Positions 12,015 to 43,594 of a stretch of 64,000 bases of DNA are shown in pieces (position 1 is the first letter of the stretch; every line of letters starts with the position of its first letter). The translations under genes and the position numbers were made by a program. Source of the DNA: Promethearchaeota archaeon. GTDB lineage: Archaea > Asgardarchaeota > Lokiarchaeia > Sigyniarchaeales > SOKP01. Under the pieces are notes generated by a model. That model was not told where the DNA came from. It did not search any database and saw nothing but the letters and a program-made list of their open reading frames with translations. The stretch covers positions 46,428-110,427 of the forward strand of contig JBHLOC010000008.1 of NCBI GenBank assembly GCA_048940925.1, written 5' to 3'.

Positions 12015-12981
12015 TTGGGAACTGGAAAAGGCTTTGGAAAGACCATACTTTTTGGCGAAATTTTATCCCTCTTTCAGGTATAAACGCAAACATTTTGTAG
12101 TGTATGGCTTACCAGCAATTGCTTCAGCATTAAGTTCTTTTACTACAGCTAAAGTAAAAGTTGTTAAAGGAAATGGTTGGGTGGTTGATGATCAAAGACC
12201 TGCTACACCTGGATATAAGGAACAAAAATATAATGATGCTATGCAATCTATTGTAAATGTGATTCAGCATTTAAACATTGATTCGGAGAATCAAAAACTT
12301 GAAATAACTTTTGCTGGTGACTTAATAGCTGCGAGTGGTGTCGGTGCATCGGCAGCTCAATGTACTTCTTTAGCTCGTGCAATAAATAATACTTTTAATC
12401 TAAACCTAAATAATGAAGAGATTAACGAAGCAGCATATGAAGGAGAGAAAGCATATCATGGGACGCCATCAGGAATTGATAATACAGCTTCTACATATGG
12501 TGGTTTGATTTGGTTCATTAAGAATTTAAGCGGTGGAAAGAATAAGATGGATTTACTACAATCACCAAAAAGGATCCCCCTTGTGATCGGGAATACTGGA
12601 ATAACTGCCTCGACTACAGAGGTTGTTTCGGATGTAAGAAGCCAAAAAGAAGAAAATCCAGAAAAGTATGAGAAAATCTTTAATGACTATAAAATATTAG
12701 CAACTAAAGCAAAGGATGCGTTATTAAGGGGTGATATCAATGAGATTGGAAGACTTATGAATCAAAATCATAAATTATTACAAGATATAACCGTATCTGG
12801 AGAATTAAATGATAAATTAGTGGATGTAGCACTTAAAAATGGTGCTGTTGGTGCAAAAATGACTGGAACTGGACGTGGAGGCTTGATAATAGCATTAGCT
12901 GAAAATGAAGAAATACAAGGGCAAATAGCAAATGCAATCAAGAGAGAGGGATATGATGCTTGGGAAACTATGATTGGATGA
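12015..12981 (+). CDS. mvk: Mevalonate kinase, spliced: exons 12015-12059 and 12091-12981 (311 aa)
   Basis: GGTGA SD then TTG start gives MGTGKGFGKTILFGE; removing 31 nt joins it to HFVVYGLPAIA, restoring the GKxILFGEH motif. SGVGASAA, HGTPSGIDN and KMTGTGRGG motifs follow. Confidence 0.9.
12060..12090 (+). other. Putative BHB-type mRNA intron (31 nt) in mvk
   Basis: GGCG AA|A TTTTATCCCTCTTTCAGGTATAAA CGCA AA|C; it shifts the frame and contains an in-frame TAA. Confidence 0.8.
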
Positions 12982-13030
12982 GAAAAAAGTTACCTAAAAT
13001 TAAACACTCTGAAATTATATTTTATTTATC

Positions 13031-13735
13031 ATGAATGATCTCGACCTTGATATTCGACCAATCACTATGGACGAATGGTTACCAGATCGTTGTCTCGGAG
13101 GTGGCAAACCAATTGATCCTTCCAAACTCACACTTCAAGCTGGCTGCACCAGTCTTTGCTTGTTCTATACCGCTACCGCACTAGGGATATCACGTCAAGA
13201 ATCACTTACTCAACCAGCAGATGAAATTAAGAAAAAGGCTGATCGAGAACCTGCATGTCGTAGCATGTTGGTTGAATTATATCGTGAAACAATCGAAAAA
13301 CATGGAGGTTGTGGTTTTGTTGCTTGGTATGAAGGTAAAATCGTAGGGTACCATAATTTCTTCCCTCGGAATATTGCACGCAGGATTAAGTTCTTTGGTT
13401 GGGGAGAAGATATTGACAGTTCTAAACTAACACTCATACACAATTGCATTACCCATATACGTGGAGATTACCGTCGTAAGAAGATTGGAACACGACTTGC
13501 CCGGACATCCTTGACATGGGCGAAAGAAAACGGATGGGAACGGTTTGAGGTACATCTTGTACTCCCGGACGTTGAAAATGGTTTCCGCAATGAGCAAAAG
13601 TCATGTCGTACCTTCTGGGAAAAACTGGGATTGACGGTATTTAGAACATTTTCTTCAGATGAAGAAACACAAAAAGTTTATGGTGTACCAGTCCGACACT
13701 CTATGGCGGTTGATCTGACAACGTGGAAACCCTGA
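13031..13735 (+). CDS. GNAT-family acetyltransferase
   Basis: YRRKKIGTRL acetyl-CoA motif A and FWEKLG; GC visibly higher than the flanks. Confidence 0.75.
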   Translation: MNDLDLDIRPITMDEWLPDRCLGGGKPIDPSKLTLQAGCTSLCLFYTATALGISRQESLTQPADEIKKKADREPACRSMLVELYRETIEKHGGCGFVAWYEGKIVGYHNFFPRNIARRIKFFGWGEDIDSSKLTLIHNCITHIRGDYRRKKIGTRLARTSLTWAKENGWERFEVHLVLPDVENGFRNEQKSCRTFWEKLGLTVFRTFSSDEETQKVYGVPVRHSMAVDLTTWKP

Positions 13736-13874
13736 AACTCCCAACATTAATAATATAAATAATAATTGAAAGAAATTAAATCTAAATATTACAGGTTTTA
13801 TGTAATATCTTTGATTAAAAAATTTGTGGATTTATAGCTTAACAAAGAAGACCTGTTAAATTATTCCTTATTAA

Positions 13875-14086
13875 GATATAGGAGGATTTGCTTATAACTT
13901 CCTTCGTTCTGCATGGAAAGACCGAAAAGAAAATTCCATTTCTAATACTGTTAAAGAAATAAAAATTTTAAAAAATGAATTAAGATCTCGTGTATGGTTA
14001 ATGAATTTAGATAAGATTGAAAAATTAATAGGTAGACGAGATAAATATGTTATTTTTGGGGTTTATATAGGTGGTTTCATCAATAG
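13875..14086 (+). pseudogene. C-terminal remnant of a second type 2 IPP isomerase gene
   Basis: Reads DIGGFAYNFLRSAWKDRKENSISNTVKEIKILKNELRSRVWLMN...(frameshift)LYRWFHQ*, which aligns with the end of 20745-22643 (NIGGFAFKFLKTAWKDYK...ELRSSLWLMN...LYQWINQ*). No start codon. Confidence 0.85.
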
Positions 14087-14088
14087 CT

Positions 14089-14640
14089 CTATACTGATCC
14101 CCATCTTTTTATATTGGTTTCTAAACCTATCTGGTCAAGTATTCTTCCTACAGTATGTTCAATTAATTCAGTAACATCTTTAGGTTTAATATAGTAAGAA
14201 GGAACAGGTGGAGCGATTATAACTCCTAACCTCGCCAGTTTTAGCATATTTTCTAAATGAATTGCATTTAATGGACTTTCTCTTACAACTAATATGAGTT
14301 TTCTTTGTTCTTTTATCATTACATCTGCTGCCCGAGTAATCAAATTATCTGCATATCCGTTTGCAATTGCTGCTAATGTTTTCATTGAACAAGGCACTAT
14401 AATCATATTCTCTATTTTGTATGAGCCACTCGCTGGTGGAGCAGCCAAATCGTCTACTGTGTAATTCTTTGAAGCTAAATTACGGATCTTAGAAATAGAG
14501 TAATCTGTTTCAAGCTCAATTATTTTTTGAGCACTATCAGATATAATTAATTCTCGGTTAATTTCATTTTCTTTAAGGATTTCTAATAATCGTATGGCAA
14601 TTTGAACACCAGTTGCCCCTGAAATCGCAATTAACACCAT
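14089..14640 (-). CDS. ubiX: Flavin prenyltransferase UbiX
   Basis: ISGATG, ASGS, PCSMKTLA, NLITRAADV and RESPL motifs. Confidence 0.95.
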   Translation of the reverse strand: MVLIAISGATGVQIAIRLLEILKENEINRELIISDSAQKIIELETDYSISKIRNLASKNYTVDDLAAPPASGSYKIENMIIVPCSMKTLAAIANGYADNLITRAADVMIKEQRKLILVVRESPLNAIHLENMLKLARLGVIIAPPVPSYYIKPKDVTELIEHTVGRILDQIGLETNIKRWGSV

Positions 14641-14892
14641 AAGTTTGAAGTAGACCTTAATTTTTGTCTAATAAAATGTTTCAATTATTTTTAGGTTTTT
14701 CTAATTTTTATTATAATTCCGAAATCTAAAATGATAATCAACCTAATAAAATTTTATAATATTTAATTTAAAACAAAAAATAATGTCATTTTAAGCTTTA
14801 TAATAAAATTTAGTAATTCTCCAATCTCTATATGCATTAGTAAATGTTCTTCTTTTTCCTTTACATAAATAGAATTATTTAGCTATAATAAA

Positions 14893-16260: not shown

Positions 16261-16314
16261 CATAACTGTTCAAACTAGTAAATCTATTTTTAAGGTGTGA
16301 TAGAAATGCAAGAA

Positions 16315-17421: not shown

Positions 17422-17526
17422 AAGGATTTTCTCTATTTTTATGAGATTCTTATAAGAAAGTGAAGCTGTATTAAAAATATTATACAATAATACATACTTA
17501 TTTTGAAATTTCTATTTATAAAAAAA

Positions 17527-18333: not shown

Positions 18334-18420
18334 AGTAATACAGCTCTTAGAAAGATTGTAATTATAGAAACCTGTATGGTTTTTAAATTTTAGCTTCAGA
18401 GTATATTTAAACATTTTCAT

Positions 18421-22643: not shown

Positions 22644-22770
22644 TAATTTAATTTTTATTAGAATTTAGAATCAAATATTTTGTTAACCAAATGGTAACCT
22701 CGATTATTTCTCATCAACAATCTATAAATGAATTCTTTAGTCCTAGTATTAAACGAAAAATAAAAAATTT

Positions 22771-23258: not shown

Positions 23259-24326
23259 TCAAAAGCTTCTATTTAATACAAAGGTTAATAAATTTTCATA
23301 AAACTCTGTTTCAGATTTATTAATTATCGGTTTTAAATGCTCAATGGAAATTTTTGCTTTTTCAAAATAAAAATTGGCTAACTCTTTACTTGAATCTTTT
23401 ACTTCAGCTTCCCTAAATAAATTCTTTACTTCTTGAACATCTTCATCACTCATTTCCTGTTGCTCAATTAATTGATTAAGATGTTCTTTCTTTCTTTTTT
23501 CTAATTTATTTAAAGCACTTATTAGTAGACATGTTTTTTTACCTTCTCTAATATCCCCGTCGGTAGGCTTTCCTGTAACTTTTTCGTCTCCAAAGGTGCC
23601 TAAAATATCATCAATAATCTGAAAGGTAATACCCAGATTAATTCCATATACAGAAAGATGTTTTTTATACTTTTCATCAGCCTTTGAGTAGTTTGCTCCA
23701 ATTAAAATGGATTTTTCTAAAAGAGCGCCAGTTTTAAGAGAGATCATATTAATATAGTCTTGAATTGAGATTTCTTTCTGATTTACCATATCTAACTCAA
23801 TCAATACCCCATTTGCTATATCTGTGAATGCTTGCTCATAATAATTGATTGCATTTAGGTTTAATTCCTTTTCAAAGTTGTTGTTAAAATAAGCCTCCAA
23901 ACCTAAAAAAAATGCGGAATCCCCTCCAATTATTCCGATGGAGTTCCCAAAATCCGTAGCGTTCATTTTTTTTAAATTATATTTTTTATAGTAATTTTTA
24001 AATCTAAAATGAAATGCAGGTTTCCCTCTCCTAAAATCATCCTTATCGATAATATCATCATGAACTAATGAAGCATTATGAAGGAATTCAGTTCCTACAC
24101 TTGGAATTATGATCCTATCATCATTTTTAGTGTTAAAAGCATTATAAGTTGCAATGCATAATAAAGGACGGATCCTCTTGCCTCCCGCTAAAAAATAATC
24201 TCTTAATTCTGAATAATAATCCTTTAGAAACGAATTCTCTACGCTTTTTAATTTTTCATTGTAAATAGTTTCAATTGCATAATTAATCTTGGATTTATAT
24301 TTGGTTACATAATCTGTGAATTTTAT
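23259..24326 (-). CDS. idsA: Polyprenyl (geranylgeranyl) diphosphate synthase, ATA start (355 aa)
   Basis: The frame extends 120 codons upstream of the listed ORF and includes GGKRIRP and HDDIIDKDDFRRG (FARM); SARM FQIIDDILG. The only plausible start is ATA after the AAGGTGA SD. Confidence 0.88.
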   Translation of the reverse strand: MKFTDYVTKYKSKINYAIETIYNEKLKSVENSFLKDYYSELRDYFLAGGKRIRPLLCIATYNAFNTKNDDRIIIPSVGTEFLHNASLVHDDIIDKDDFRRGKPAFHFRFKNYYKKYNLKKMNATDFGNSIGIIGGDSAFFLGLEAYFNNNFEKELNLNAINYYEQAFTDIANGVLIELDMVNQKEISIQDYINMISLKTGALLEKSILIGANYSKADEKYKKHLSVYGINLGITFQIIDDILGTFGDEKVTGKPTDGDIREGKKTCLLISALNKLEKRKKEHLNQLIEQQEMSDEDVQEVKNLFREAEVKDSSKELANFYFEKAKISIEHLKPIINKSETEFYENLLTFVLNRSF

Positions 24327-26901: not shown

Positions 26902-29721
26902 TCACGCAACTAAGCTCAGTTCAATTTTAAATGTAGCAATTACATGTGCTTGTAATGTTATTTCCAGTATATTTTTATCAAACCTATCAATATTTGCTTT
27001 AATTACTTGTTTTGGTATATCTTCCAACAAATTTACAATTTTAACATCGCTAATTGTGATCTTTTCATAAAAAGTTAAAATTGTCTTTTGAGGGATAGAG
27101 GAAATATTATAAACTCTGATAACCAAATAATCTCCCTCCTCTGCTTTTTTAAGAGCACTTAAAATTACGCTTTTATTATTTATCTCAAGAAAACTTAAAG
27201 CAAAAGGAAGATAAGGCTCAAATTGTTCTTTTTTGGATGTACGATAGTAAGATAAAGGTCCAGATGGTCTTAATATAACTTTATCCGAGGCTCTAAAAGG
27301 GGTTTGAACCATTGCTGGAAAAATTGGCTTAAGTGGGCTATTAAATTCTTTTCCTCTCATATGTACTTCTGAATCTAACCAGTTGGTTTTTTGGCTAGTT
27401 ATAATTGACAATTCAAATATGTGTGTACCAAGGCATTGTGCACCAGGTGTGTTCAAACCTGGTCCTGCATGAGACATTCTAGTAATAAAATCATCACGAG
27501 AAAGCCATTCAACACATCTTAAGAGTGTGATTGCAAATATTATAGTATTATCTTTATTAATTATCCCTTCATATTCCGGTAAACCTTTGTTTAATACAGC
27601 AAAAGTTCTTGAATTATCATTAATACATACAAAATCCTTCTGATGGTTTGTAGGTAGCGGTTTTTGAACCCACTTGTCTGCTTTTGGCATTTTAACCCTC
27701 CTAGGAACGACATAAAAGTGTCCATCAGCAAAGATTGTGTCTGATCTTATCTTAGTAGGAAACAAGACACGAATTCGATGATCTTTGCTATTATTTTCTA
27801 ATTCAATCTTAAAATCAATTCGTTTAATCCCTTTATATAATGAGATATATAACGTTATTTTATTATCAACTAACCAGTCTTTTCTATTATATCTATCCTC
27901 TGTAAGCGAGTGTGGAAGCTTTAGGTTTAATCTTAATTTAAATGTCTTTTGAGATGGGCCATCTATATAAACTGATCTTTCGAATATAGCAGCATCTTCA
28001 GTTGTGAAAACCAGATCATTTTGATTCTCTCTTGGACCAGAAAAGTCATATTCATCACCCCAATCACCCACATCCTCGAATTCACAAATATTTTCATAGC
28101 ACACTCCTGTTGTTTTATCAGTAACTTTGATAAATCCATCTGATTTTATATCAATTCGATAAAACTCATTTTCTAAATATTCTCGTGTTATCTTAAAATT
28201 TATGTTTTCGACAGTATATAACGTTGCTGATTCCACTGGTATAACGTAATAAACTTTATAGCCACATGGAGGAACTTCTGCTAAAAATGTTAACTTATGA
28301 CTTATGCCAAACTTTCTGGTAAATCGAGGCTGTTCTTTAATAACACAAGTTTGATATTCAATTTCTTGTTCATCAGAATCAATCACTTTGATATTAAATG
28401 GTAATTTTTCACCTTTAGTCTTACGTGAAATCATATTGAATTCTACAACATCTTTTCGTTTCCATGGGAGTGGATTATAAACAATTAAAGAGTTTAAATC
28501 CTTGTATTTAATATTCCCATTAATAAAATTGGATAAATAGATAAAAGAGTTTTTAAAAATCTCACTTGCAATTTGCTCTGCCCAGTCAAATCTCGTGTTC
28601 ATTTCATCATGAACTTCATCAATGCTACAACCACATATACTATCATGGGGGGCATTTTTCTGAAGCCATTTTAAGCCTGTTAGTATGTAATCCTTTGGGT
28701 AAATAAAGCTCCTATATTTATCTAGAACCCACGTAATTGTAGAAATCGGTTCTGAGTACTTTTCATAAAGATTTTCAATTACTGTATTTCTTTGCTTAAT
28801 CCAAATTCGAGCGGACAATACTCCTGATAATAAATGACCATATCTTCCGCCTCTTAATTCTCCTTCAAATGATTTTAAATTTGGATTTGATTCTAAAACT
28901 TTGCCTACATAATATTCAAAGTCCGCTTGTTCTATATATTTTTCAGGATATAAATTATTCCATTGTTTTATGATTTCTGGTATTTCTGGTTGAGCTTCAT
29001 CGTGATCTGAACCATTATTAAGGAGTACATGTGGAGTACTAGTATAATTTTCTAAATTTTTAACCATATATTTTATCCTTCTCAATGCAGGTTTATATTC
29101 TCCCTTGATTTTTTGTGTATTGAGCTTTTCTAATGACCCATAACCAAATATTAAATGAATTCCTAAAATAGATGCGGCATTTCCAGGGGCTTTCCATAAA
29201 TATTCCATATTCAAATTGTTTTCTTCAAATTCATTACCAAATCCTCTCTTAAATATTACAGAAGAGATTTCAAAACCACTTAAAACTTGAGGCAATTGTG
29301 CAATATGCCCAAATGGATCAGGTATATAACCTGCTTTCATTACACGTCCAAACTTTCTGCTAATTTGGTGTCCGATTATTAAATTTCTTATTAAAGATTC
29401 ACTACTAACCAAAAATTCATCTGGCAACACATACATTGGACCTATAGAAAGCCTTCCTTCTTTTACATATTTTTTAATTTCCTCCTCTCTCTCAGGTCGA
29501 ACTTCTAAATAATCCTCTATTGGAATGGTTTGCCCGTCGAACGTGAAATTTTTGTAATCAGGGTCATTTTTTAGAACATCCAACAATTTATCCATCATTA
29601 TAACAAGTCTAGCACGAAACTCTTGAAAAGGGAGATACCAATCATGCTTTATACATCAATTGTATAAAGTTTCACGGTCCCAATGAGTTTCTGGAACAAT
29701 TATTATGTTATTCGCTTTCAA
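26902..29721 (-). CDS. GH38 alpha-mannosidase (MngB-like), spliced: exons 29721-29671 and 29640-26902 (929 aa)
   Basis: TTG start gives MKANNIIIVPETHWDRE; removing 30 nt joins WYLPFQEFR, restoring the GH38 HWDREWY Zn-binding motif. FDGQ, PDPFGH and HDSICGCS motifs follow. Confidence 0.9.
29641..29670 (-). other. Putative BHB-type mRNA intron (30 nt) in the GH38 gene
   Basis: CGTG AA|A CTTTATACA ATTGA TGTATAAAG CATG AT|T: 4-bp helix, two 3-nt bulges and a perfect 9-bp intron stem; contains an in-frame TGA. Confidence 0.88.
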
Positions 29722-29812
29722 AATAATGGCATTCTCATCAAAATTTTTAATTTGAGTTTCTAAAAGAATAGTGTTATATAAACTAATTGAATATTCAAAG
29801 AATTAAGGACAT

Positions 29813-33499: not shown

Positions 33500-33547
33500 G
33501 TTACAATACCAAAAACTATTCATTCCAAAACATTTGGATTTTAAATT

Positions 33548-35608
33548 TTAAACAGATTCTAAAAATTTATAGGCAACATATAAAAAAGCGTCATTCACAT
33601 TTTCACCAGATTTTGCAGATGTAAGTATATAATGAAAATCATGTTTATCAGCTACTCTTTTTATATCTGATTCACTAATTATAAACTGATCAGTTAGATC
33701 CGATTTATTTCCTATTAATATAATATCAATATCTGTTTTAACATAATTTTTAATTTCATCATACCATTTATCAACACTCTTTAAACTATCTAAACGCGTT
33801 CTGTCGATTACTATAAAAGCAAATTTTGCTCCTTCATAAAACTTTTTTCTATAAGGTGCCATCTTAGGTAATTGGCCACCAATATCCCATATTACGAATT
33901 TTATTTTTGTATTTTCACTTAATTCTATTTCCCTTTGCGAAATATCTACTCCCACTGTAGAATGATAATCTTCTTTGAAGAGATTTAGGACATATCTCTG
34001 AATTAATGATGTTTTACCTACTGCATAATCACCTGTTAAAATTAATTTAAAAGAAAACTGCCCCTCTGGAATTTTGCCTTCTTTGGTTTTAGATAAAATT
34101 CTTACAATCTCTGGGATCTCAAGAGATATATTTTCATTTCCTTCCAAAATTAGTTCGATTTTTGTAGCAACATGTTCAGAATAGACCCTTAATTCTGTAT
34201 CTGAAGGAGAAAGGTTAGAAATCGTCAATAAAATTGACTTTGAACCTTTTGAACAATAAGCAAATTTGTTATCTTGAATAGTTGTTACATTAAAAAAACT
34301 ACTTTCATCGCCAAATTCTCTTTTTATTCTCTCAATAAATGTATCAATTGTAACTGCTAATGCTCCTAATAAAGATTCATCTTCCGTTTGTTCACTGCTG
34401 ACTGAAGTAATGATGAAACCGTCTCGATCACTTACTATTACCGATATAATTCCCTCAGTATTTTTCATATAATTCTTTAATAATGTCGTTAAAAGTTTAT
34501 CTAACGAAGATATTCTTTTTGGGCTATATTGTTCTGCTATAGTCGAAGTTGTTGATATTACTAATTCTTGTTGAGATTCAGATCTTTTTAATCTATTTTG
34601 TATTTCTTGATATTTATTATAAAATTCTAATTCTTGAAGATTTTCTCCAAGTTCTATGCATATATTTACAATTTTTTCATAAATTGAATCTGCTTTCTCA
34701 AGATTAACCTCAATTAAGGCAATTTCAAATTCATTAATTAATATTTCTTTATCATACATTAATTTTAATATAGGTGCAATTTGTTCAAACATCTCTAAGG
34801 TTTTTAAAATAATTCTCAATAACGTATCTTGATATTCTGAATCCGTGGCAATTACAGGATATACTTTTAGGTTTAAGATCTCTTCTATTTGAGCTGGTTC
34901 TAATATATCTTTTAAATCCTGTTTATTGCCTAAACCACAAGTGTAAGCTAAAGGTGTTTCTTCTTTTGTTTTATTTAAGAAAAATTTACTTTTATTTATA
35001 TTTTCTAAGCTAGAATCAGTTATTATAATTACTGCATCACTTCCCTTGATGAAATTATTCCATAAAAAGCCAATTTCTTCTTGTTCAGTAAAATCTCTCA
35101 ATAGAAAGTGTATTTTTCCAATCTTTAATAGTGCAATATCTCCTCCGATTTGAGAGTCATGTTTTAGTGGAATTTCTTTTGTCCTTATTAAATTGAAAAT
35201 TGTAGTTTTTCCAACTTCTTTATACCCTACTAACGAAATTTTGGGCGGAAATTTATTTTGGAATGAATAGATTACGGGATCAAAACTCTTTAAACTATTT
35301 GCATCAAATTTCTGGAGTAGATTATCTTTAAATAAATTTACAAAATTTTCTTTACACTTTACTAATTCTCTTTCAATAATTACAGGATCATCAACTATAG
35401 TATTAATAAATAAAAATAATAAATTGAATTCTTCATCTCCTAAATATGATATACGGTCTCTTTTATGATCCCAATATTGAAATGTATTAATAATGCCTGA
35501 AAATATCTCTTTTTTTAAGAATTCAAAATTTTCTTTCTCAAGAGCTTTTCCGAAAAGTTTTTTATATATGAGGATCTTATTTTTAAAAATATAAACTTGC
35601 CTTAAAAT
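33548..35608 (-). CDS. Multidomain longin / degenerate GTPase / roadblock / Rab-like GTPase protein, ATT start (686 aa)
   Basis: The frame extends 169 codons upstream (ILRQVYIF... and KISLVGYKEVGKTT); roadblock SDRDGFII; C-terminal GDYAVGKT, WDIGGQ, GNKSD and TSAK. AAGGTGA SD precedes ATT at 35608. Confidence 0.85.
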   Translation of the reverse strand: MLRQVYIFKNKILIYKKLFGKALEKENFEFLKKEIFSGIINTFQYWDHKRDRISYLGDEEFNLLFLFINTIVDDPVIIERELVKCKENFVNLFKDNLLQKFDANSLKSFDPVIYSFQNKFPPKISLVGYKEVGKTTIFNLIRTKEIPLKHDSQIGGDIALLKIGKIHFLLRDFTEQEEIGFLWNNFIKGSDAVIIITDSSLENINKSKFFLNKTKEETPLAYTCGLGNKQDLKDILEPAQIEEILNLKVYPVIATDSEYQDTLLRIILKTLEMFEQIAPILKLMYDKEILINEFEIALIEVNLEKADSIYEKIVNICIELGENLQELEFYNKYQEIQNRLKRSESQQELVISTTSTIAEQYSPKRISSLDKLLTTLLKNYMKNTEGIISVIVSDRDGFIITSVSSEQTEDESLLGALAVTIDTFIERIKREFGDESSFFNVTTIQDNKFAYCSKGSKSILLTISNLSPSDTELRVYSEHVATKIELILEGNENISLEIPEIVRILSKTKEGKIPEGQFSFKLILTGDYAVGKTSLIQRYVLNLFKEDYHSTVGVDISQREIELSENTKIKFVIWDIGGQLPKMAPYRKKFYEGAKFAFIVIDRTRLDSLKSVDKWYDEIKNYVKTDIDIILIGNKSDLTDQFIISESDIKRVADKHDFHYILTSAKSGENVNDAFLYVAYKFLESV

Positions 35609-35894
35609 AGAATTTTCACCTTAATATTGATATTTTCGATTTCACATGTTTAATTGAATTATTAATTATTATTAATTTAATAATGGTTAAAACGAAATAA
35701 TATATTTTTCTACATTTATTTTTACTCATTTAATATTATCCAAAAACTATAGATATAAAAATCTGTATTAGTATAATATTTTACAAATAAGTTAGGGTAT
35801 ATAATTGAACTAGCTTATCACTTATTTAATATAAAACAGAGTTAAGAAAATTTATTTTATAAGATATAAATAAACAACGGTAAAACTTTTTAAA

Positions 35895-38800
35895 ATGACA
35901 GTTAGAAAAAATAAATCAAAAAAAAGAATAAAATCTCTTGGAATTCTTTTTCTTACAATAATTTTACCAGCCATTATTAGCACACCACTATTTTCAATTT
36001 TTAATGAACCAAACCAAACTATTGAACAAGACAATACTGAAAAGGATGAAAGTAGGGAACCACAATTCCCAACCCCCTCAAGTAATCTTCCTAATGCCCA
36101 TTATTTTAGTTATTATAAAACTATTACAATTGATCACACAAAAGTCAATGGTGATCATTCTAATTTTCCTGTGTTAATTTCTATAATCGACTCAGACTTG
36201 GACGATAAGGCTCAGTTTGATGGGGATGATATTGCTTTTGCAAATAGTACTGCATGGCTAGATCACGAAATAGAGCTATATGACCCAAGTTATAGTTTCG
36301 ATGAAGCCCAACTTATTGCATGGGTCCAGATACCTTTTTTATATAATTCAACTGATACATTTATATTCATGTTTTATGGTAATTCCACTATAGGGCCCCA
36401 AGAACATGCAACAGGAGTTTGGGATTCCTATTATAAGGGTGTATGGCATTTAAAAGAAGATCCTGGAGGTCCAAATGATATTAAAGATTCAACTTCGAAT
36501 GATAAACATGGAACTTCAAACTCAATGTGGATGTCTAATCAGGTGTCAGGAAAGATTGATGGTAGTTTAAATTTTGATGGAAACTATGATTATATAAGTG
36601 TGGGTGATGTTGGACCAGAAATAAAAACTATTGAATTTTGGATGAACCCCGATTCTCTCGCAAGTTATGGTGATGTGGATAACTCAGGTCCTCACAGCCC
36701 AACTGCAACTGGAGAAACATATGATCAGTGGAACGCCCCAACTAATGCTTATGCTAGTGATGATTTATTTGCAAATGCATCAGGATATTATCCAGATCAA
36801 GATTATTACAACTTTTCTTTTAATATACCTGCTGATGCTCTTATTCAAGGTATTGAGGTATCTATTGAGGGAATGTCTGGAACACAATATCAGACAGCTA
36901 GATGTAGAATAAGGCTTTCCGGAAATGGCGGGAGTACTTATACCGATTATTATGAGTTAAGTTGGTGGAGTAGTTATTATGACGATTATGATACAGCTGG
37001 AGGTTCCACAAATACATGGGGCAAACTTGGAGGATGGTCGCCATCTGAGTTTAATAATGCTAACTTCAGAGTTCGGCTTGAAGAATCAGGTCAGGCTATT
37101 TTACTTGTTGATCATCTCATTGTTACAGTATATTATAGGATACCTGGTGATATAGCAGTGATTGACCTAAATGGAAATGCTCAAATTTCAATTGATAAGG
37201 ATGGTGGTGAAATAAAAGCTTTTGGTTTTCCGGGTACAACCAATATTTATATTAATGGAACAATGGAGACTAAAGTAGGTATAGGAACATGGTATCATGT
37301 AGTAATTATTAATACAATTGGAGTCCTTGGTTCGGATTTTGTTATTGCGGGAAATATTTCAGTGAACTTTGATGGTCTTTTCGACGAGGTTCGTCTCTCC
37401 AATATAACTCGCTCACCAGAGTGGATTGCCACTGAATATAATAATCAGTACGATCCAGATAACTTTTACTTTATTAGTGAAGAAAGAACTTCGGTGACTG
37501 ATGTTCGAGTTAATGCTTTTGATCTATATGGTCATATCATTCCAAATGTAAATATTTCCCTAATTCAAAATAATATAATAATTAGGAGTGCTATAGCAAA
37601 TGCTAGTGGGGCTGTTATGTTTGAAGGTGTACTTTCAATAGATTATAAATATAATTTTAGCGTATCCATGACATCAAATATCGCACCTTATCACACAATT
37701 ATCATTAATAGAACATCTGAAGCAATCCTAATAGAAGGAGAATCTCAAACTATTAATTTAATATGCAATATATCCAGAAATATCTTTAATGTGGTAGATA
37801 CTGATGGAATTCCACTTGATTCTGGATGGATTATAGTTGGTAATTATTCAGATCCAATTCAGAATTGTACTATTGACCAAAATGGACAAGCTACATTTAG
37901 GTGGTTAAATAATAGCGCTTATAATTATACAGTATGGTATCGTGATGTTGATTATAATCATGAAAATCAGCATAAAATTGAAGTAGCAACAGGAGACATA
38001 TTCAAAAGTCAATATGATTCAGAGATCAATATAACTACAATCTTAACAACAGTCAATTTTACACTTTTTACTAAGAATAATCCTCAACCCGTTGATGGCG
38101 CCAAATTAATATTGGGCAATGCTAACTTAGACAGAAGTATTGTAAATTTAACCACAGACATAGATGGAAAAGCAACGCTTAGGTGGGTAAATTCTTCTGG
38201 TATTAATTCAGATTATTCATTGCAAGTTAGTTTCTATGGAAAGCTATGGGACATTGAAATAGAAGATCTTATGACAGGTGTGAAAAAACAAATCAATTTT
38301 ACAGTGAAAGCTAAAGCAGCTTATAATGTGAGCATTATTCTTGAACCAACTGAGCTAGAAAAATTTGAAACAGACCTAATATCATTAAATCCAATAAGCA
38401 ATATTCAAGTAGAATGGGGTTCGAATGTAACATTCAGAGCATTATTCAATGTAACTAAAGTACCTTCAGGATATGAAAATTTAACTGGACCAACCTATGC
38501 AGAACCGATGTCATATAAAATATTTGAAGATTCAACCCTCATTCTTTCTGGAATAATACCCACAGAAGATGATTATATTGGGAGACATAAGAAAGAAATT
38601 AGAACAGATGAGTTAGAAACTGGGATAGTTTATATAATTATAATAACAGCTCAAAAACCTGGATATGTTTTGCCTTCAGAGGACATTATAATGTCATTGT
38701 ACCTTTTAGAAAATGAACTAATATTAAACCAATCCGAAAATGATGATTCACCTCAATCAATACCTTGGCAGGAGTTTACCAACATGTCAGTAAAACCATA

Positions 38801-41800
38801 TGGTATAATCTCTGAAGATTTCAGTATAGACTATAATATGTATAATTGTAATAATGGTACATTTCAATTTTCAATCCCAAGTATCTCAAACGAGTGGGTT
38901 TTATCTCGGATTGTATTTAATGTTTATGATGTGACTTTTGGAGTGGGCCCTGGAGAAATAAATTTAAACATTACTGATGATTTTGGTGTAAGACATGATT
39001 TTGATTCAAATTGGGATCATTATTATTATGACCCATTGGCTACTAATGGGAGTTGGAGCAATTTAGAAGTTATTTTAAATAAAGGGGAAGTAACTGGCGG
39101 TGATACTTTTAATTTTACATTTGATGGAACTTTTGTAGGAGATATAGATATCATTGCTACATCTTATTTTATTCGGGATAAAATTAATGTTCAATATTCA
39201 AAATTCAATGTTACAGATTCCATACCTATTTTAACTGACCTTGAAGGATGGGCAATTCAAAACATAACATTTCTAATTTATGACTGCTATAATTTTTCTG
39301 CAGGAAGTAAAGCAAATTTAGCATCTCTGTCAAATCTCAATATAACTACCAATGAAGGTTATACGTATTCACTAGACTCTGGCGATATTTTTGGAAATGG
39401 AAACCTCACTATAGATGATAGAATAATCTATCCTTTAGATAATCAATTCTTATTTACAATAGAAGCTAATGGAAATCTAACATTTCATGTAATAATTAAA
39501 GTTGAATATATCCAAGAATTTTTACAAAATCAATATATTGAGAAAATTAATATATCAAAAACAGAACACGATTTTGGTAAAACAGATACTTTTCAAGTCA
39601 AGTTTATCGAGAAAAAATGGACTGAGGATTATGCAACCTTAGTATTTAGTGGGATATCCCCATTAGGTGGGCTCAGTTTACTTCCATCAGAAATAAATAT
39701 GACTATTACAATAGAAGGTGAAACATATAATATTGAGGACTTAATGGTTGGACAAGGAATCTTTTCTTTGGAAGGGCTTGAAAAGGATAAAATATTAACA
39801 GCCATCATAGACACAAATTTAACGTCTTCTATTATTTTCAATTTGTCTTTCATGATTAAATATTCCAGAATTGTGACTTATGAAACTAAAGGACAAGTTA
39901 ATTTTTCTATTATAGAGAAACCTGAAATATTTGGCGGAGTTCAATATAATGAGGATTTGGGATATTATTTACTGTTTATAAACACATCCTTACTAGATGC
40001 TAATGATTATACTATAAGGTTTACTATCACTAAAGAGAATTATAAATTATCAACAAAGGATCTGGAATTATTTGTATTAGAAAGATTTACTTTACTTAAT
40101 GGCTCTGCTGACTTCTTTAGAACTTTTGAGCAAATGTATGTTATGGAACCAGTAAACTTCACATTCTACTATATAGATGCTTTAACATATCAACCAATTA
40201 CAGATTTAGACCAAAAAACTTATGTTTGGGAGTATTATGATGATGAGGGGAATGTGATAAAAACAGGACAAGGTACTCTTTTTACTCAAGGATATTACCA
40301 TATACTAGACATAGATACGGAAAAATTCAAACTAGGTGAATATTTAATAGTTATTACTTTAAGTAAAGATAACTACGAATACAAAACAGGAATAATTACA
40401 TTAACCGTTTTAGAACGCCCAACCTTGATTAATGGTGAGTCTGTATTATCAGTTATTCAAGAGAATATTTATATAGGTGATGCAATCAATTTTACATTTA
40501 CTTACATAGATGAAATAACAAATATGAATATAAAAAATCTTGCTGTACAATCCTTTATATGGGAAGAATTTAATGCCACAGGTGCTTTAATAAACAATGG
40601 TACAGGATCGTTGGTATCAAGCCTAAATGATCTATATGTTTTAGATTTTGATACCAAGACAAGAGATCCTAACACTTTCAAATTAGTTATCACATTAGAT
40701 AAAGAAAATTATACTTTTCAATCAGCTACAATTTTATTAAATATCAACTTGAGAGAATTCAGTTATACTTTGGGTGATAATTTCAGGAATAACAAAATTA
40801 ACATTGGTAAAGGAAAAAATGTTGTTATTGAAATTCATCTCATTGATTTAACTCGAAATAATTTTGATTTATTAGATGCCATAGTCCAGATATCAATTAA
40901 AGGCCATGTGTATACATTTCAACAAGTAGAAAATGGGATATATCGTTATGAATTAAGTACAAATAATATCGATACCTTCTTTGCTTCAAAGATACTTACT
41001 GGTGTTATAATGATCTCTAAAGAAAATTATGTATCAGAAGAATTTAGCATTACGATTGTTGTTGAAATGGAAGAGATCTTCTCAGGTATACCTATATTTT
41101 ACTTTCTATTAGGATTAATTACTAGTATTAGTCTAGCTGGTAGTATTGTTGGATATAGAGTGTATAAAAATGTTACAACCCCTACATTTGTGAAAAGAGT
41201 ACGAGCGATGAAAAAGGCAATTGAAGGAGAAAAAGAAATCTCTGAATCTCTATTATATCCCAGTAAGATTGAATTTATTGGTCGACGAGTAAAAAGTAAA
41301 TGGGATAAGCTTGGATTATCTTTAGCTGATATTCTTAGAATTAAAATTGAAAAAGAAACACTAAAAAGAAAAATTAGTGAAGATGTTACACGACGTGAGT
41401 TTACGCCACTTGGATTATTATTAATGCAATGGGATGAAAAAATGGGTACTAAAGTTTTAGCTAAATACCCCGAAAATCTTGATGCATCTGAAAAAACCTT
41501 AATGCAAATATACGGTACACATGAATACAGTGGAGAAAAAGGAATAATAACTCTAACAGTAGGGATGACAAATATTATTTCATATTATACAGGACCTGAA
41601 CAAGCATTTTATTTACTGTTATTCCTGAACTTGGATGATGACCCTGATGTTTATGAGGGCGGTATGGCAAATATTATTTCAATAATCTTAGAAAATCTTA
41701 AAGATGATTCTTATTTACAAATGATCCCTTATCTCTTCCAACGCTTATCTATATATCCATCGCTTAGTGATGAAGAAATTCTAGCATTGAATTATCAAGA

Positions 41801-42497
41801 TGAAATCAAACGATTGATTATAAACATGTTAAGAGATGATGGAGCAATCATCAAATCAGAATTATCTATATGGCTCAGAGAAAAAGCTTTAGAGGGATTT
41901 ATTGATTTAGATGCTATTCTTCTAGAACTAGCTAAAAAAGATATTATAAAGCAAATTGCTATCAAGGGTATACCTTCAGCATTAATTGTTCTTACTACTG
42001 ATATTTTTATGCTGCGAGTTCCTCCTGTAAAATTATTAGAAGATCCAGTAAACCGTGGTTTACCATCACAATTTGCCAAAACATATCCTTCAGAAGTTAA
42101 GAAATTTTTCCAAGAATATCATCCTACTGAAGAAGATAACCTTAAAATCATAGAACTCTTCATTAATCCCCAAGTTTATGAAACACTACGTTTACTCAGA
42201 ACCGCTATTGTTACAAGACAAGACCTCGAAAAGTTAAGTAAAAAAGGGGTGGAAGATATCTACGGTGTTTTAAAAATACTCTGGGATAATCACATGATTA
42301 AAGTATATCAAGATGAAAATGATATAGAATATTACGCGCTCCTTTCCGATTTCTATATGGATCTTTTATTCCCTAAATATATGTTGGAAACTATTAAAAC
42401 ATCTTATGAGCAAAAATCTAAAACTAATAAAGTACTTATTGAATACCTAAAGGCACTTGAGGATACATATTTTGAATTAAAGAAACAAGAAAAATAA
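35895..42497 (+). CDS. Giant single-pass surface protein: DUF2341/LamG-like and Ig-like ectodomain, TM helix, cytoplasmic longin/uDENN-like domain
   Basis: Signal/TM N-terminus; NFPVLI..DGDDIAF..WVQIP (DUF2341); FDGLFDEVRLS (LamG); TM near 41090-41160; cytoplasmic GLLLMQWDEKMGTKVLAKYP. Confidence 0.8.
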   Translation: MTVRKNKSKKRIKSLGILFLTIILPAIISTPLFSIFNEPNQTIEQDNTEKDESREPQFPTPSSNLPNAHYFSYYKTITIDHTKVNGDHSNFPVLISIIDSDLDDKAQFDGDDIAFANSTAWLDHEIELYDPSYSFDEAQLIAWVQIPFLYNSTDTFIFMFYGNSTIGPQEHATGVWDSYYKGVWHLKEDPGGPNDIKDSTSNDKHGTSNSMWMSNQVSGKIDGSLNFDGNYDYISVGDVGPEIKTIEFWMNPDSLASYGDVDNSGPHSPTATGETYDQWNAPTNAYASDDLFANASGYYPDQDYYNFSFNIPADALIQGIEVSIEGMSGTQYQTARCRIRLSGNGGSTYTDYYELSWWSSYYDDYDTAGGSTNTWGKLGGWSPSEFNNANFRVRLEESGQAILLVDHLIVTVYYRIPGDIAVIDLNGNAQISIDKDGGEIKAFGFPGTTNIYINGTMETKVGIGTWYHVVIINTIGVLGSDFVIAGNISVNFDGLFDEVRLSNITRSPEWIATEYNNQYDPDNFYFISEERTSVTDVRVNAFDLYGHIIPNVNISLIQNNIIIRSAIANASGAVMFEGVLSIDYKYNFSVSMTSNIAPYHTIIINRTSEAILIEGESQTINLICNISRNIFNVVDTDGIPLDSGWIIVGNYSDPIQNCTIDQNGQATFRWLNNSAYNYTVWYRDVDYNHENQHKIEVATGDIFKSQYDSEINITTILTTVNFTLFTKNNPQPVDGAKLILGNANLDRSIVNLTTDIDGKATLRWVNSSGINSDYSLQVSFYGKLWDIEIEDLMTGVKKQINFTVKAKAAYNVSIILEPTELEKFETDLISLNPISNIQVEWGSNVTFRALFNVTKVPSGYENLTGPTYAEPMSYKIFEDSTLILSGIIPTEDDYIGRHKKEIRTDELETGIVYIIIITAQKPGYVLPSEDIIMSLYLLENELILNQSENDDSPQSIPWQEFTNMSVKPYGIISEDFSIDYNMYNCNNGTFQFSIPSISNEWVLSRIVFNVYDVTFGVGPGEINLNITDDFGVRHDFDSNWDHYYYDPLATNGSWSNLEVILNKGEVTGGDTFNFTFDGTFVGDIDIIATSYFIRDKINVQYSKFNVTDSIPILTDLEGWAIQNITFLIYDCYNFSAGSKANLASLSNLNITTNEGYTYSLDSGDIFGNGNLTIDDRIIYPLDNQFLFTIEANGNLTFHVIIKVEYIQEFLQNQYIEKINISKTEHDFGKTDTFQVKFIEKKWTEDYATLVFSGISPLGGLSLLPSEINMTITIEGETYNIEDLMVGQGIFSLEGLEKDKILTAIIDTNLTSSIIFNLSFMIKYSRIVTYETKGQVNFSIIEKPEIFGGVQYNEDLGYYLLFINTSLLDANDYTIRFTITKENYKLSTKDLELFVLERFTLLNGSADFFRTFEQMYVMEPVNFTFYYIDALTYQPITDLDQKTYVWEYYDDEGNVIKTGQGTLFTQGYYHILDIDTEKFKLGEYLIVITLSKDNYEYKTGIITLTVLERPTLINGESVLSVIQENIYIGDAINFTFTYIDEITNMNIKNLAVQSFIWEEFNATGALINNGTGSLVSSLNDLYVLDFDTKTRDPNTFKLVITLDKENYTFQSATILLNINLREFSYTLGDNFRNNKINIGKGKNVVIEIHLIDLTRNNFDLLDAIVQISIKGHVYTFQQVENGIYRYELSTNNIDTFFASKILTGVIMISKENYVSEEFSITIVVEMEEIFSGIPIFYFLLGLITSISLAGSIVGYRVYKNVTTPTFVKRVRAMKKAIEGEKEISESLLYPSKIEFIGRRVKSKWDKLGLSLADILRIKIEKETLKRKISEDVTRREFTPLGLLLMQWDEKMGTKVLAKYPENLDASEKTLMQIYGTHEYSGEKGIITLTVGMTNIISYYTGPEQAFYLLLFLNLDDDPDVYEGGMANIISIILENLKDDSYLQMIPYLFQRLSIYPSLSDEEILALNYQDEIKRLIINMLRDDGAIIKSELSIWLREKALEGFIDLDAILLELAKKDIIKQIAIKGIPSALIVLTTDIFMLRVPPVKLLEDPVNRGLPSQFAKTYPSEVKKFFQEYHPTEEDNLKIIELFINPQVYETLRLLRTAIVTRQDLEKLSKKGVEDIYGVLKILWDNHMIKVYQDENDIEYYALLSDFYMDLLFPKYMLETIKTSYEQKSKTNKVLIEYLKALEDTYFELKKQEK

Positions 42498-42559
42498 CAA
42501 AAATCTTCTATTCTTTTTATTTTTTTTAAACTTCTTATTTTTTTATTATTGTTTGTTGA

Positions 42560-42639
42560 TAAATCCACACCCGAGCAGAGTTTTCATCAAATAACTTTCC
42601 ATAAGAGGTTTTTTTATTTGATTCATTATGATGGATTTA
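42560..42639 (-). promoter_or_regulatory. Putative eukaryote/Loki-type SECIS element
   Basis: Just 3' of the TAG: outer helix TAAATCCA/TGGATTTA, core ATGA...GA flanking a perfect 9-bp ATCAAATAA/TTATTTGAT, apical AAAAA and a CC/GG mini-stem. Confidence 0.75.
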
Positions 42640-42644
42640 CTTTA

Positions 42645-43594
42645 CTAGCAACCATCCGATTGCTGGAGATTGATTTTTATAAATGCTTCCTCTTGAAAGT
42701 TGCGTTGTTCTGATTTGACAGATCTATTTACTTGATGTAAATGTTTCATAGCGTCATTTTTTCCTTCTTTAATGTTTTTAATTAGTTCTTCTTTACTAAA
42801 TCCGCCAGAAATTACTAATGCTGTTTGAAAGGACTGTTCAGGTTCTAAAGTTTTAAATTCAATCTGTAATGCAGATAAAATTTCATCAGGGCCCTCATGC
42901 AAAGTATTAGAAAGATTCAATCTATTTTGATCGATTTTGAAATCTTTTGTTAAACATGACTCGTAATTTGTCGATCTTGAAATGGGTGAAAACCCACCGT
43001 ATAAACCAGTATCATCATATTGGTAAATTATATCATTTTCCTCATCGTAACCTGAAAGATCATTGTTATAACCTTCAAGTCCATTTATATCAAAATCAAA
43101 CACAAAATACATTGAAAAGTCTTTCATGTTATAATCCGAGATATTTTTCATTGTAAAGAACGTGCTGATATAAGGAACCTGAGGTGGATTGAATATATCC
43201 TTATACACACGAATAAATTCCTTTTTTTTCAGATTAATAGCAGGTAACTTTTTTTCTCTAACCAATTTCTTTAGATATTCTGTAATGTTAAAATCTAAAG
43301 TAATTCTGCTTATAACAGTGCCTTTACGGGTGTTAACTAAATTATAAATTGGTGTTGGTTCAATATTTCTTAGAATCACCGGAATAGTTCCAATTTTTTT
43401 TCCTTCTAGCTTAAAGCTAAACCACGGACCAGTAAATTCCTGCTCACTAAGATATATAAGATATTTTCCCTTGTATGTTAGTTCTTTAATTGAAAACCCC
43501 ATGACATATCCAGCAGCATTTCTTGTTTCAAATTTTAATTAAAATTGAAGATTCAAGTCGCCAGTACATCATGCCAGTGAACCTTAAGGACTAT
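42645..43594 (-). CDS. Putative selenoprotein of unknown function, spliced: exons 43594-43552 and 43519-42645 (305 aa, Sec14)
   Basis: GGAGGT SD and ATA start give MVLKVHWHDVLAT-TGA; the canonical BHB cut joins in frame to NAAGYVMGFS; SECIS-like hairpin in the 3' UTR. Confidence 0.7.
43520..43551 (-). other. Putative BHB-type mRNA intron (32 nt)
   Basis: CTTG AA|T CTTCAATTTTAATTAAAATTTGAAA CAAG AA|A: perfect 4-bp central helix, two 3-nt bulges and an intron hairpin. Confidence 0.8.

What the first reader, a model, noticed from the sequence alone, without database searches (positions are those of the whole stretch)
12015..43594. A family of tRNA-type (bulge-helix-bulge) introns in protein-coding genes of an Asgard archaeon
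Seen: three unrelated genes (mvk, GH38 mannosidase, unknown 42645-43594) each carry a 30-32 nt hairpin insert. All three inserts lie 43-51 nt after the start codon, follow the sequence GAA, and contain or cause a stop. In all three, cutting after the 2nd nucleotide of each 3-nt bulge restores the frame exactly, and all three genes use non-ATG starts. The tRNA-Leu introns in this window share the same AA|N 5' bulge. Established: the archaeal splicing endonuclease EndA and the RtcB ligase process BHB motifs, and archaeal mRNA introns are known from only a few cases such as crenarchaeal cbf5. Inference: this lineage splices many mRNAs (3 in 64 kb), possibly as a post-transcriptional switch. That would be a prokaryotic analogue of IRE1/RtcB-type non-spliceosomal mRNA splicing and bears on intron origins in eukaryote relatives.
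Basis: partly seen in the sequence, partly recalled or inferred. Interest (0 to 1): 0.97.

Follow-up and report, generated by a model that had tools for sequence, protein, structure and literature searches.

The report
tRNA-type mini-introns in three Asgard genes
Three protein-coding genes of a Loki-type Asgard archaeon are each interrupted near their start by a 30-32-base hairpin shaped like the introns that the tRNA-splicing enzyme removes; relatives lacking the insert read exactly across the predicted cut sites, so these messenger RNAs almost certainly have to be cut and rejoined, something published so far for essentially one archaeal gene.

Summary
Each insert holds a stop codon in the upstream frame.

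In all three genes, orthologues from the same genus that lack the insert read exactly across the junction given by the bulge-helix-bulge (BHB) rule. They number 15 of 41, 26 of 30 and 26 of 30.

The mvk insert occurs in 26 species-level genomes. Its predicted helices covary, including a silent exon position that covaries with the intron. Exon 1 stays under purifying selection.

The genome encodes a catalytic and a non-catalytic EndA subunit, with the loop linked to broad specificity, and one RtcB ligase.

The third gene is an unannotated selenoprotein. Its in-frame TGA is conserved, it has a SECIS-like 3' element, and it starts at ATA.

Not shown:
- splicing at the RNA level (no RNA data could be used);
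- the number of such introns (my genome-wide scan gave no excess over controls);
- any regulatory role.

The non-ATG starts are unrelated to the introns.

All three introns are patchy on the gene trees. The GH38 intron travels with its 5' flank by recombination.

This scan had already reported such introns on other pieces of the same genome.

The parts
12015..12059 (+). mvk exon 1: TTG start and 15 codons ending ...ILFGE. The last six bases are the central-helix strand GGCG (12054-12057) and the first two bulge bases AA.
   Evidence: pN/pS is 0.16 among 26 intron-bearing orthologues.
12060..12090 (+). mvk intron, 31 nt. It comprises the third bulge base, an inner hairpin, the central-helix strand CGCA (12085-12088) and AA of the 3' bulge. 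It holds an in-frame TAA.
   Evidence: It is absent from 15 of 41 orthologues exactly at GAA|CAT. Covariation is shown.
12091..12981 (+). mvk exon 2 (HFVVYG..., GHMP kinase N and C domains).
   Evidence: Pfam PF00288 and PF08544.
29671..29721 (-). GH38 alpha-mannosidase exon 1: TTG start and 17 codons ending ...THWDRE. The central-helix strand CGUG lies in the Arg and Glu codons.
29641..29670 (-). GH38 intron, 30 nt. It has a 9-bp hairpin, the central-helix strand CAUG, bulges AAA and AUU, and an in-frame TGA.
   Evidence: It is absent from 26 of 30 orthologues exactly at GAA|TGG and appears as a 30-nt gap in blastn against relatives.
26902..29640 (-). GH38 exon 2 (WYLPFQEF...).
   Evidence: Pfam PF01074, PF07748, PF17677 and PF09261.
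43552..43594 (-). Third gene, exon 1. The ATA start lies 8 nt after GGAGGT. There are 13 codons, then TGA (43555-43553, probably selenocysteine), then one base of the next codon.
   Evidence: The ATA/ATT start and the TGA are conserved in 30 orthologues, with conservative amino-acid replacements.
43520..43551 (-). Third-gene intron, 32 nt. The central helix is CUUG/CAAG and the bulges are AAU and AAA. The inner hairpin closes with CUUC/GAAG. The outer exon-exon helix is long, about 15 bp.
   Evidence: It is absent from 26 of 30 orthologues exactly at TGAA|AT and appears as a 32-nt gap in blastn.
42645..43519 (-). Third-gene exon 2. The protein belongs to an Asgard-restricted family with no Pfam match.
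42561..42638 (-). SECIS-like element in the 3' UTR of the third gene. It has an AUGA core, the helix UCAAAUAA/UUAUUUGA, an A-rich apical loop and a GA.
   Evidence: Fold. It is conserved in all 30 orthologues. Its features match the Asgard eSECIS described in PMC11227280.
60845..60986 (-). tRNA-Leu gene with inserts. The anticodon-loop intron has a central helix of 3 bp plus one mismatch and bulges AAU and AAC, the same geometry as the mvk intron.
   Evidence: ARAGORN with introns; sequence read by eye.

Best explanation
The three inserts are bulge-helix-bulge (BHB) mini-introns in pre-mRNAs.

Proposed mechanism:
- In the transcript, four exon-1 bases pair with the last bases of the insert to form the 4-bp central helix.
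- An intron hairpin closes one side. Exon-exon pairing closes the other side; it is strong in the third gene and weak or absent in mvk and GH38, which makes those two relaxed forms of the motif.
- The heterotetrameric splicing endonuclease (catalytic alpha plus structural beta subunit) cuts after the second base of each 3-nt bulge.
- RtcB joins the exons and probably circularises the intron.
- Only the spliced mRNA encodes the full protein. The unspliced mRNA terminates inside the intron after 18-23 codons.

Shown here: the inserts exist in many independent genomes, the cut sites predicted from structure equal the junctions in intron-less orthologues, the helices covary, exon 1 is under selection, and the enzymes are encoded.

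Inferred: cleavage by EndA and ligation by RtcB in vivo.
For: Junctions:
- mvk: 15 of 41 same-genus orthologues, and all 11 from other genera and families, read GGN GAA|CAT. The other 26 carry a 30-31 nt insert at that site.
- GH38: 26 of 30 read GAA|TGG and 4 carry the 30-nt insert.
- Third gene: 26 of 30 read TGA A|AT (or A|AC), and 4 carry inserts of 28-32 nt with the same central helix and bulges.

Structure, on 26 mvk sequences:
- 87.6% of cells are paired, against 52.7% or less when the partner columns are slid.
- 5 of 12 pairs show changes on both sides (13 cells).
- 0 of 500 shuffles reach the observed covariation score.
- The silent third position of the exon Gly codon covaries with the intron (C-G 21, U-A 3, U-G 1).

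Selection: exon 1 of intron-bearing mvk has pN/pS 0.16. The motif GKTILFGE is invariant over several synonymous codons.

Enzymes:
- Two genes carry the PF01974 domain. One aligns over its full length to the Aeropyrum pernix catalytic subunit, including the loop region, at E 4e-33. The other lacks the catalytic Tyr and His.
- There is one RtcB.
- Asgard EndA was reported as (alpha-beta)2 with the L1 loop that goes with relaxed BHB cleavage (PMC5829648).

Other observations:
- The tRNA-Leu intron in the window has the same geometry.
- Further coding inserts of 30-31 nt split the aIF2-gamma P-loop, EF-2 and rpoN elsewhere in the genome.
Against: There is no RNA-level evidence.

The BHB is not canonical in two of the three introns. 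The mvk central helix has 3 bp plus a G-A (G-U in some species) and an extra unpaired U. mvk and GH38 have almost no outer helix, so they need a broad-specificity enzyme.

MFE folding energies of the 71-76-nt regions are not exceptional compared with shuffles (z = -0.06, -1.35 and -2.43).

A genome-wide scan combining the BHB motif with ORF joining found no excess over wrong-frame controls. The motif is therefore not distinctive by itself.
Confidence: 0.85

Rival explanations
1. Translational bypassing. The ribosome hops over the hairpin without RNA splicing, as in phage T4 gene 60 or the mitochondrial 'byp' elements of Magnusiomyces.
For: The inserts are short hairpins of about the size of known bypass elements. 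They hold a stop codon and must be skipped precisely for the protein to be made.
Against: There are no matching take-off and landing codons. After GAA, the landing regions read CGCAAA|CAT and GCATGAT|TGG, with no GAA or GAG. No stop codon directly follows the take-off codon in mvk or GH38. The third insert sits inside a codon (phase 1). The conserved, covarying feature is the exon-intron 4-bp helix with symmetric 3-nt bulges, which bypassing does not need.
Confidence: 0.04
2. The inserts are removed from the RNA by some other nuclease and ligase, or by self-cleavage, and the BHB-like shape is incidental.
For: Two of the three motifs are relaxed. No enzyme assay or RNA data exist.
Against: The exact junctions coincide with the BHB cut rule in all three genes. 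A tRNA intron in the same window has the same geometry. No known ribozyme or RNA family matches.
Confidence: 0.07
3. The interrupted genes are pseudogenes, or the inserts are assembly or sequencing artefacts.
For: Gene callers give truncated or wrong-frame N-termini. Intron-bearing mvk is recorded as a 315-aa protein in public databases, against 311 aa for intron-less forms.
Against: The same insert is at the same site in 26 independently assembled species-level genomes. Exon 1 is under purifying selection. The genes are single-copy and one is the essential mvk. The intron sequences diverge while keeping their pairing.
Confidence: 0.02

Closest known systems
cbf5 pre-mRNA intron of Crenarchaeota (Desulfurococcales and Sulfolobales; Watanabe 2002, Yoshinari 2006, Yokobori 2009 = PMC2738675)
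   Same: It is a short BHB-type intervening sequence inside a protein-coding gene that disrupts the frame. It occurs in a lineage with a heteromeric splicing endonuclease, and related species show lineage-specific presence and absence.
   Different: cbf5 is one gene in one phylum, and its splicing was shown experimentally. Here there are three unrelated genes in one 64-kb window of an Asgard archaeon, plus at least three more elsewhere in the genome. All are polymorphic within a single genus. One travels with its 5' flank by recombination. No RNA evidence exists yet.
Archaeal tRNA introns at canonical and non-canonical positions, cut by (alpha-beta)2 EndA with the Crenarchaea-specific (L1) loop (PMC5829648, PMC3241643)
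   Same: The motif geometry is the same: a 4-bp helix, 3-nt bulges and cuts after the second bulge base. The size range is the same and relaxed forms are tolerated. The same enzymes are encoded here.
   Different: The host RNA is an mRNA with no tRNA body, and the exon strand of the central helix is made of codons.
IRE1-dependent HAC1/XBP1 mRNA splicing in eukaryotes
   Same: It is non-spliceosomal, uses a protein-only endonuclease and RtcB-type ligation (in metazoa), and changes the reading frame of an mRNA.
   Different: The endonuclease is different (IRE1 kinase/RNase cutting two 7-nt loops). It is stress-regulated and confined to a single substrate. No homology or regulation is shown here. 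This is an analogy only.
Inteins and homing group I introns
   Same: The inserts sit in codons for highly conserved active-site motifs: mvk GE|H, GH38 HWDRE|W, next to the Sec codon, and the aIF2-gamma P-loop. Their phylogenetic distribution is patchy.
   Different: These inserts have no encoded endonuclease or protein-splicing domain and are only 30 nt long. Their mobility is inferred from one recombinant case.

Membership tests
Archaeal BHB (EndA-type) intron | Two 3-nt bulges on opposite strands, separated by a 4-bp helix | tested here: met
   GH38 has CGUG/CAUG and the third gene CUUG/CAAG, both 4 of 4 bp. mvk has GGCG/CGCA, 3 bp plus a G-A, which is G-U in 8 of 25 distinct sequences.
Archaeal BHB (EndA-type) intron | Cuts at symmetric positions in the bulges give the mature junction | tested here: met
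   The rule-predicted junctions GAA|CAT, GAA|TGG and TGAA|AT equal the sequences of intron-less orthologues.
Archaeal BHB (EndA-type) intron | Flanking helices on both sides (canonical hBHBh') | tested here: inconclusive
   All three have the inner helix. The outer helix is about 15 bp in the third gene but only about 1 bp in mvk and weak in GH38 (and by eye). Those two are relaxed forms.
Archaeal BHB (EndA-type) intron | The structure, rather than the sequence, is conserved | tested here: met
   for mvk. The third-gene introns of 28, 29, 31 and 32 nt keep the helix, the bulges and a self-complementary interior.
Archaeal BHB (EndA-type) intron | The host encodes a splicing endonuclease able to cut relaxed motifs, and an RtcB ligase | tested here: met
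   That the loop confers broad specificity is taken from the literature (PMC5829648), not assayed here.
Archaeal BHB (EndA-type) intron | The intron is excised and the exons ligated in RNA | not testable with these tools
Programmed translational bypass element | Matching take-off and landing codons, with a stop directly after the take-off codon | tested here: not met
   Sequence inspection.
Asgard selenoprotein gene (third gene) | A conserved in-frame UGA plus an eSECIS-like 3' element (AUGA_GA core and apical adenines), with tRNA-Sec in the genome | tested here: met
   The TGA is present in 30 of 30 orthologues. The element is conserved in 30 of 30. tRNA-SeC is on C3. The criteria come from PMC11227280.

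The most novel reading that the evidence does not exclude
The mini-introns are a population of selfish, laterally spreading elements. They lodge in codons for indispensable active-site motifs: mvk GE|H, GH38 HWDRE|W, the base after a selenocysteine codon, and the aIF2-gamma P-loop. They move between species of the genus by homologous recombination of the intron together with its flanks. They make expression of many housekeeping genes in a close relative of eukaryotes dependent on the tRNA-splicing machinery, and that dependence could be used for regulation.
Probability: 0.3. Interest if true: 0.92.

Novelty: new member of a known kind. Interest (0 to 1): 0.85.

Why it matters
For more than twenty years, cbf5 has been essentially the only documented archaeal protein-coding gene with an endonuclease-type intron.

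Here one 64-kb stretch of an Asgard genome holds three such introns, in unrelated genes. They are gained, lost or exchanged within a single genus.

If RNA work confirms splicing, several things follow:
- mRNA splicing by the tRNA machinery is a routine part of gene expression in a lineage close to the eukaryotic ancestor.
- There is a natural system, with intron-plus and intron-minus alleles, for studying gain and loss of protein-spliced introns.
- Many Asgard gene models are wrong. About half of the public mevalonate kinases of this genus are recorded with a false N-terminus that lacks the catalytic motif.
- The third gene shows that a selenoprotein can be missed entirely when a non-AUG start, a UGA codon and an intron coincide.

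Tried and rejected
- RNA evidence: no RNA holder was listed for this DNA.
- Rfam at gathering and at E-value thresholds found no tRNA, SECIS or intron family in the window, only two weak PYLIS_3 hits.
- De novo census: I scanned both strands of the 4.8-Mb genome for a 4-bp helix, 3-nt bulges and an inner hairpin (4.5 million loose hits). I then asked whether removal joins two open or coding-like frames more often than wrong-frame controls. No clear excess appeared. For 29-32 nt the counts were 30 against 27 with the coding-potential filter, and 13 against 4 with a stem of 6 bp or more. The 5'-proximal test with SD and start codon gave 21 against 18. The scan also mis-set the borders of the aIF2-gamma insert. 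It therefore cannot count the introns, and 'many' remains unquantified.
- A blastn comparison of the window with about 290 kb of syntenic DNA from seven relatives found no further coding insert of 28-34 nt beyond GH38 and the third gene. Introns fixed in all relatives would be missed.
- Reverse transcriptase, as a route to precise intron loss: PF00078 was not found in this genome.
- Search for a spliced-length (311-aa) mvk product nearly identical to this genome's: none. The closest proteins (88% and 85% identity) have the intron-bearing length.
- I could not fit a BHB to the D-arm insert of the tRNA-Leu.
- A 31-nt insert in relative G015 opposite window position ~35745 has a 3' end, on its reverse strand, like that of the mvk intron. 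It lies in an intergenic region and has no fitting helix, so I set it aside.
- Literature: seven full-text searches found no report of BHB introns in Asgard protein-coding genes. The library is incomplete.
- Bypassing, pseudogene and artefact readings are rejected under Rival explanations.
Full report
**Material**

The window is C43:46428-110427 of a 4.82-Mb assembly in 90 contigs with 29.6% GC. Protein matches place it in the Promethearchaeota, the Loki-type Asgard archaea. The collection holds 54 species-level genomes of its genus.

**The observation**

mvk (+ strand). A TTG at 12015 opens 15 codons ending in the kinase motif ...GKTILFGE. The motif's continuation, HFVVYGLPA..., resumes at 12091 in another frame. 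Between them lie 31 nt.

GH38 alpha-mannosidase (- strand). A TTG at 29721 opens ...IIIVPETHWDRE. The sequence WYLPFQEF resumes at 29640, after 30 nt that contain an in-frame TGA.

Third gene (- strand). A 32-nt palindromic stretch (43551-43520) lies 43 nt after an ATA that follows a GGAGGT.

All three inserts follow the letters GAA. All three share one architecture:
- four exon bases pair with four bases near the 3' end of the insert;
- three unpaired bases follow on each strand;
- the rest of the insert is a hairpin (and by eye).

This is the bulge-helix-bulge layout of archaeal tRNA introns, where the exon supplies the 5' strand of the central helix. Cutting after the second base of each bulge removes 31, 30 and 32 nt.

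**Junction test with relatives**

I searched the exon-2 proteins in related genomes and read the DNA upstream.

mvk:
- 15 of 41 same-genus orthologues, and all 11 from other genera or families, have no insert. They read GGN GAA|CAT TTT.
- 26 carry a 30-31-nt insert at exactly that place.

GH38:
- 26 of 30 read GAT/GAC AGR/CGN GAA|TGG TAY.
- 4 (G000, G002, G005, G019) carry the 30-nt insert.

Third gene:
- 26 of 30 read ACN TGA A|AT (or A|AC).
- 4 (G000, G023, G046, G047) carry inserts of 32, 29, 28 and 31 nt. All four have the same CUUG/CAAG helix, the same bulges and the same CUUC/GAAG closing pairs, with different self-complementary interiors.

In all three genes, the junction derived from structure alone equals the junction seen in intron-less genes. 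A blastn comparison of the window with syntenic DNA of seven relatives recovers the GH38 and third-gene inserts as clean 30- and 32-nt gaps. It shows no other such gap in coding sequence.

**Correction on the third gene**

With the strict cut, the only frame that joins to exon 2 contains TGA immediately before the junction.

- The TGA is present in all 30 orthologues.
- The 13 codons before it evolve like coding sequence. One example is WHD changing to FNE, and there are many silent changes.
- All begin with ATA or ATT, 7-9 nt after GGAGGT.

The 3' UTR holds an element conserved in all 30 orthologues. It has an AUGA core, the helix UCAAAUAA/UUAUUUGA, an A-rich apical loop and a GA. This matches the eukaryote-like SECIS described for Asgard archaea (PMC11227280; PMC4989117 appears). 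A tRNA-Sec is present in the genome.

The gene is therefore most likely a selenoprotein. It belongs to an Asgard-only family with no Pfam match. The intron starts one base after the Sec codon.

**Structure and selection**

On 26 intron-bearing mvk sequences (alignment A1), I counted the 12 pairs of the proposed central and inner helices:

| measure | result |
|---|---|
| cells forming a standard pair | 87.6% |
| same, with partner columns slid by 1-3 | 36-53% |
| pairs with changes on both sides | 5 of 12 (13 cells) |
| shuffles reaching the observed covariation score or paired percentage | 0 of 500 |

The sequences are related, so the shuffle count is not a probability. The slid controls keep relatedness and still fall far short.

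The most telling pair joins the silent third base of the exon's Gly codon to an intron base: C-G 21 times, U-A 3 times and U-G once.

Exon 1 of the intron-bearing genes has pN/pS 0.16, against 0.06 in intron-less genes. GKTILFGE is invariant over several synonymous codons. The 45 nt upstream of the insert are therefore translated as part of the kinase, and the insert must be removed or skipped.

**Enzymes**

Two genes carry the endonuclease catalytic-domain fold.
- One (C58, 198 aa) aligns end to end with the catalytic subunit of the Aeropyrum pernix heterotetramer (E 4e-33). The alignment covers the segment that corresponds to the Crenarchaea-specific loop and keeps the catalytic Tyr, His and Lys positions.
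- The other (C18, 200 aa) has Phe and Thr/Ala in place of the catalytic Tyr and His. It looks like a structural beta subunit.

This agrees with the published statement that Asgard archaea have (alpha-beta)2 EndA with the L1 insert associated with cleavage of relaxed motifs (PMC5829648). One RtcB is present.

This matters because mvk and GH38 have almost no outer exon-exon helix, and mvk has only three Watson-Crick pairs in the central helix. The third gene has a long outer helix.

The tRNA-Leu in the window (60845-60986, -) has an anticodon-loop intron with the same 3-bp-plus-mismatch helix and bulges AAU and AAC.

**Evolution**

On exon-2 trees the intron state needs several changes:

| gene | intron-bearing rows / rows in tree | changes needed | forced by well-supported branches |
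|---|---|---|---|
| GH38 | 4 / 30 | 4 | 3 |
| third gene | 4 / 30 | 4 | 4 |
| mvk | 13 / 19 | 3 | 3 |

For GH38 the cause is visible.
- G002 and G005 belong to the two deepest clades of the exon-2 tree. Yet they are 76-94% identical over the 400 nt upstream of exon 2 (upstream DNA, exon 1 and intron), against about 70% in the rest of the gene.
- Each has an intron-less sister that is more than 90% identical from about 150 nt into exon 2 onward and unrelated upstream.

The intron therefore moved together with its 5' flank by recombination.

The third-gene introns and their exon 1 sequences are much more diverged. This fits an old polymorphism with repeated precise losses. No RVT_1 reverse transcriptase was found in this genome, so exchange with intron-less alleles is the more economical route to loss. 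That last point is inference.

**How many?**

Elsewhere in the genome I confirmed by eye three more coding inserts:
- 30 nt in the aIF2-gamma P-loop, whose removal restores GHVDHG-K-TT;
- about 30 nt in EF-2;
- 31 nt in rpoN.

Earlier notes of this scan list these and others.

My own de novo census failed. BHB-like shapes are too common in this AT-rich genome, and joining of frames was not enriched over wrong-frame controls. I therefore cannot support 'many' beyond a handful of verified cases. Tens seem more likely than hundreds.

- The non-ATG starts are not linked to the introns. Intron-bearing orthologues start with ATG. TTG, ATA and ATT starts appear common in the genome.
- The 5'-proximal position is not general.
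- A regulatory switch is untested.

A shared feature worth testing is that each insert lies in codons of a conserved functional motif: GE|H in mvk, HWDRE|W in GH38, next to Sec in the third gene, and the P-loop in aIF2-gamma.

**Rivals**

- Ribosomal bypassing lacks matching take-off and landing codons and does not explain the covarying exon-intron helix.
- Pseudogenes or artefacts are excluded by the selection on exon 1 and by 26 independent assemblies.
- Another RNA-processing route cannot be excluded without enzymology.

**Comparison with what is known, and verdict**

The closest known case is the cbf5 pre-mRNA intron of Crenarchaeota. That intron was shown to be spliced and was also gained and lost among lineages (PMC2738675).

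The present introns work like it and meet its sequence-level criteria. They differ in lineage, in number of host genes, in being polymorphic within one genus, and in lacking RNA proof.

Full-text searches found no report of such introns in Asgard coding genes.

I rate them as new members of a known kind, of high interest. This scan had already flagged the phenomenon on other pieces of this genome.

Noticed in passing
window 42561-43594 (-): The third gene looks like an unannotated Asgard selenoprotein. It has an ATA/ATT start 7-9 nt after GGAGGT, a conserved in-frame TGA at codon 14, and an eSECIS-like element (AUGA...A-rich loop...GA) in the 3' UTR, all conserved in 30 orthologues. Gene callers start it at the ATG at 43502 and miss the N-terminus.
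   Followed up: partly
window 24324-24326 (-), 35606-35608 (-), and genome-wide: ATA and ATT appear to be used as start codons. The polyprenyl synthetase gene (23259-24326) and a small GTPase-like gene (33548-35608) have long coding leaders with no ATG, GTG or TTG. Each has AGGTGA 6-7 nt before an ATA or ATT. Genome-wide, codons found 5-9 nt after a strong SD at the head of long coding frames are ATG 138, TTG 45, ATA 31, ATT 28, GTG 10 and ATC 7. ATA and ATT are three to five times enriched over a control spacing.
   Followed up: partly
window 60845-60986 (-): A tRNA-Leu(CAG) is interrupted twice, by a 33-nt insert in the D-arm region and a 22-nt anticodon-loop intron. Rfam and plain ARAGORN do not see it. 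ARAGORN finds only 34 tRNAs in the whole genome even with introns allowed, so many tRNA genes are probably multiply interrupted.
   Followed up: partly
window 59405-59504 (+) and 55266-55365 (-): There are weak matches to the pyrrolysine insertion sequence family PYLIS_3 (E 0.005 and 0.24, below gathering). They lie inside two ORFs of about 505-511 codons that have no in-frame stop, possibly MttB-family methyltransferase genes.
   Followed up: no
public protein records of mvk orthologues: Intron-bearing mevalonate kinases of this genus are recorded in public databases as 315-aa proteins, one of them from the LCGC14 marine-sediment metagenome. Their first ~19 residues come from the wrong frame and lack the GKxILFGE motif. 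Intron-less ones are 311 aa.
   Followed up: partly
L117 (G015:C60) about position 6143, opposite window ~35745: A 31-nt insert relative to the window lies in the divergent promoter region between the GTPase-like gene and the 2200-aa ORF. On its reverse strand its 3' end (ATAAACGCAA) matches that of the mvk intron. No BHB fits.
   Followed up: no
window 35895-42497 (+): A single open frame of about 2200 codons with high coding score. I did not examine it.
   Followed up: no
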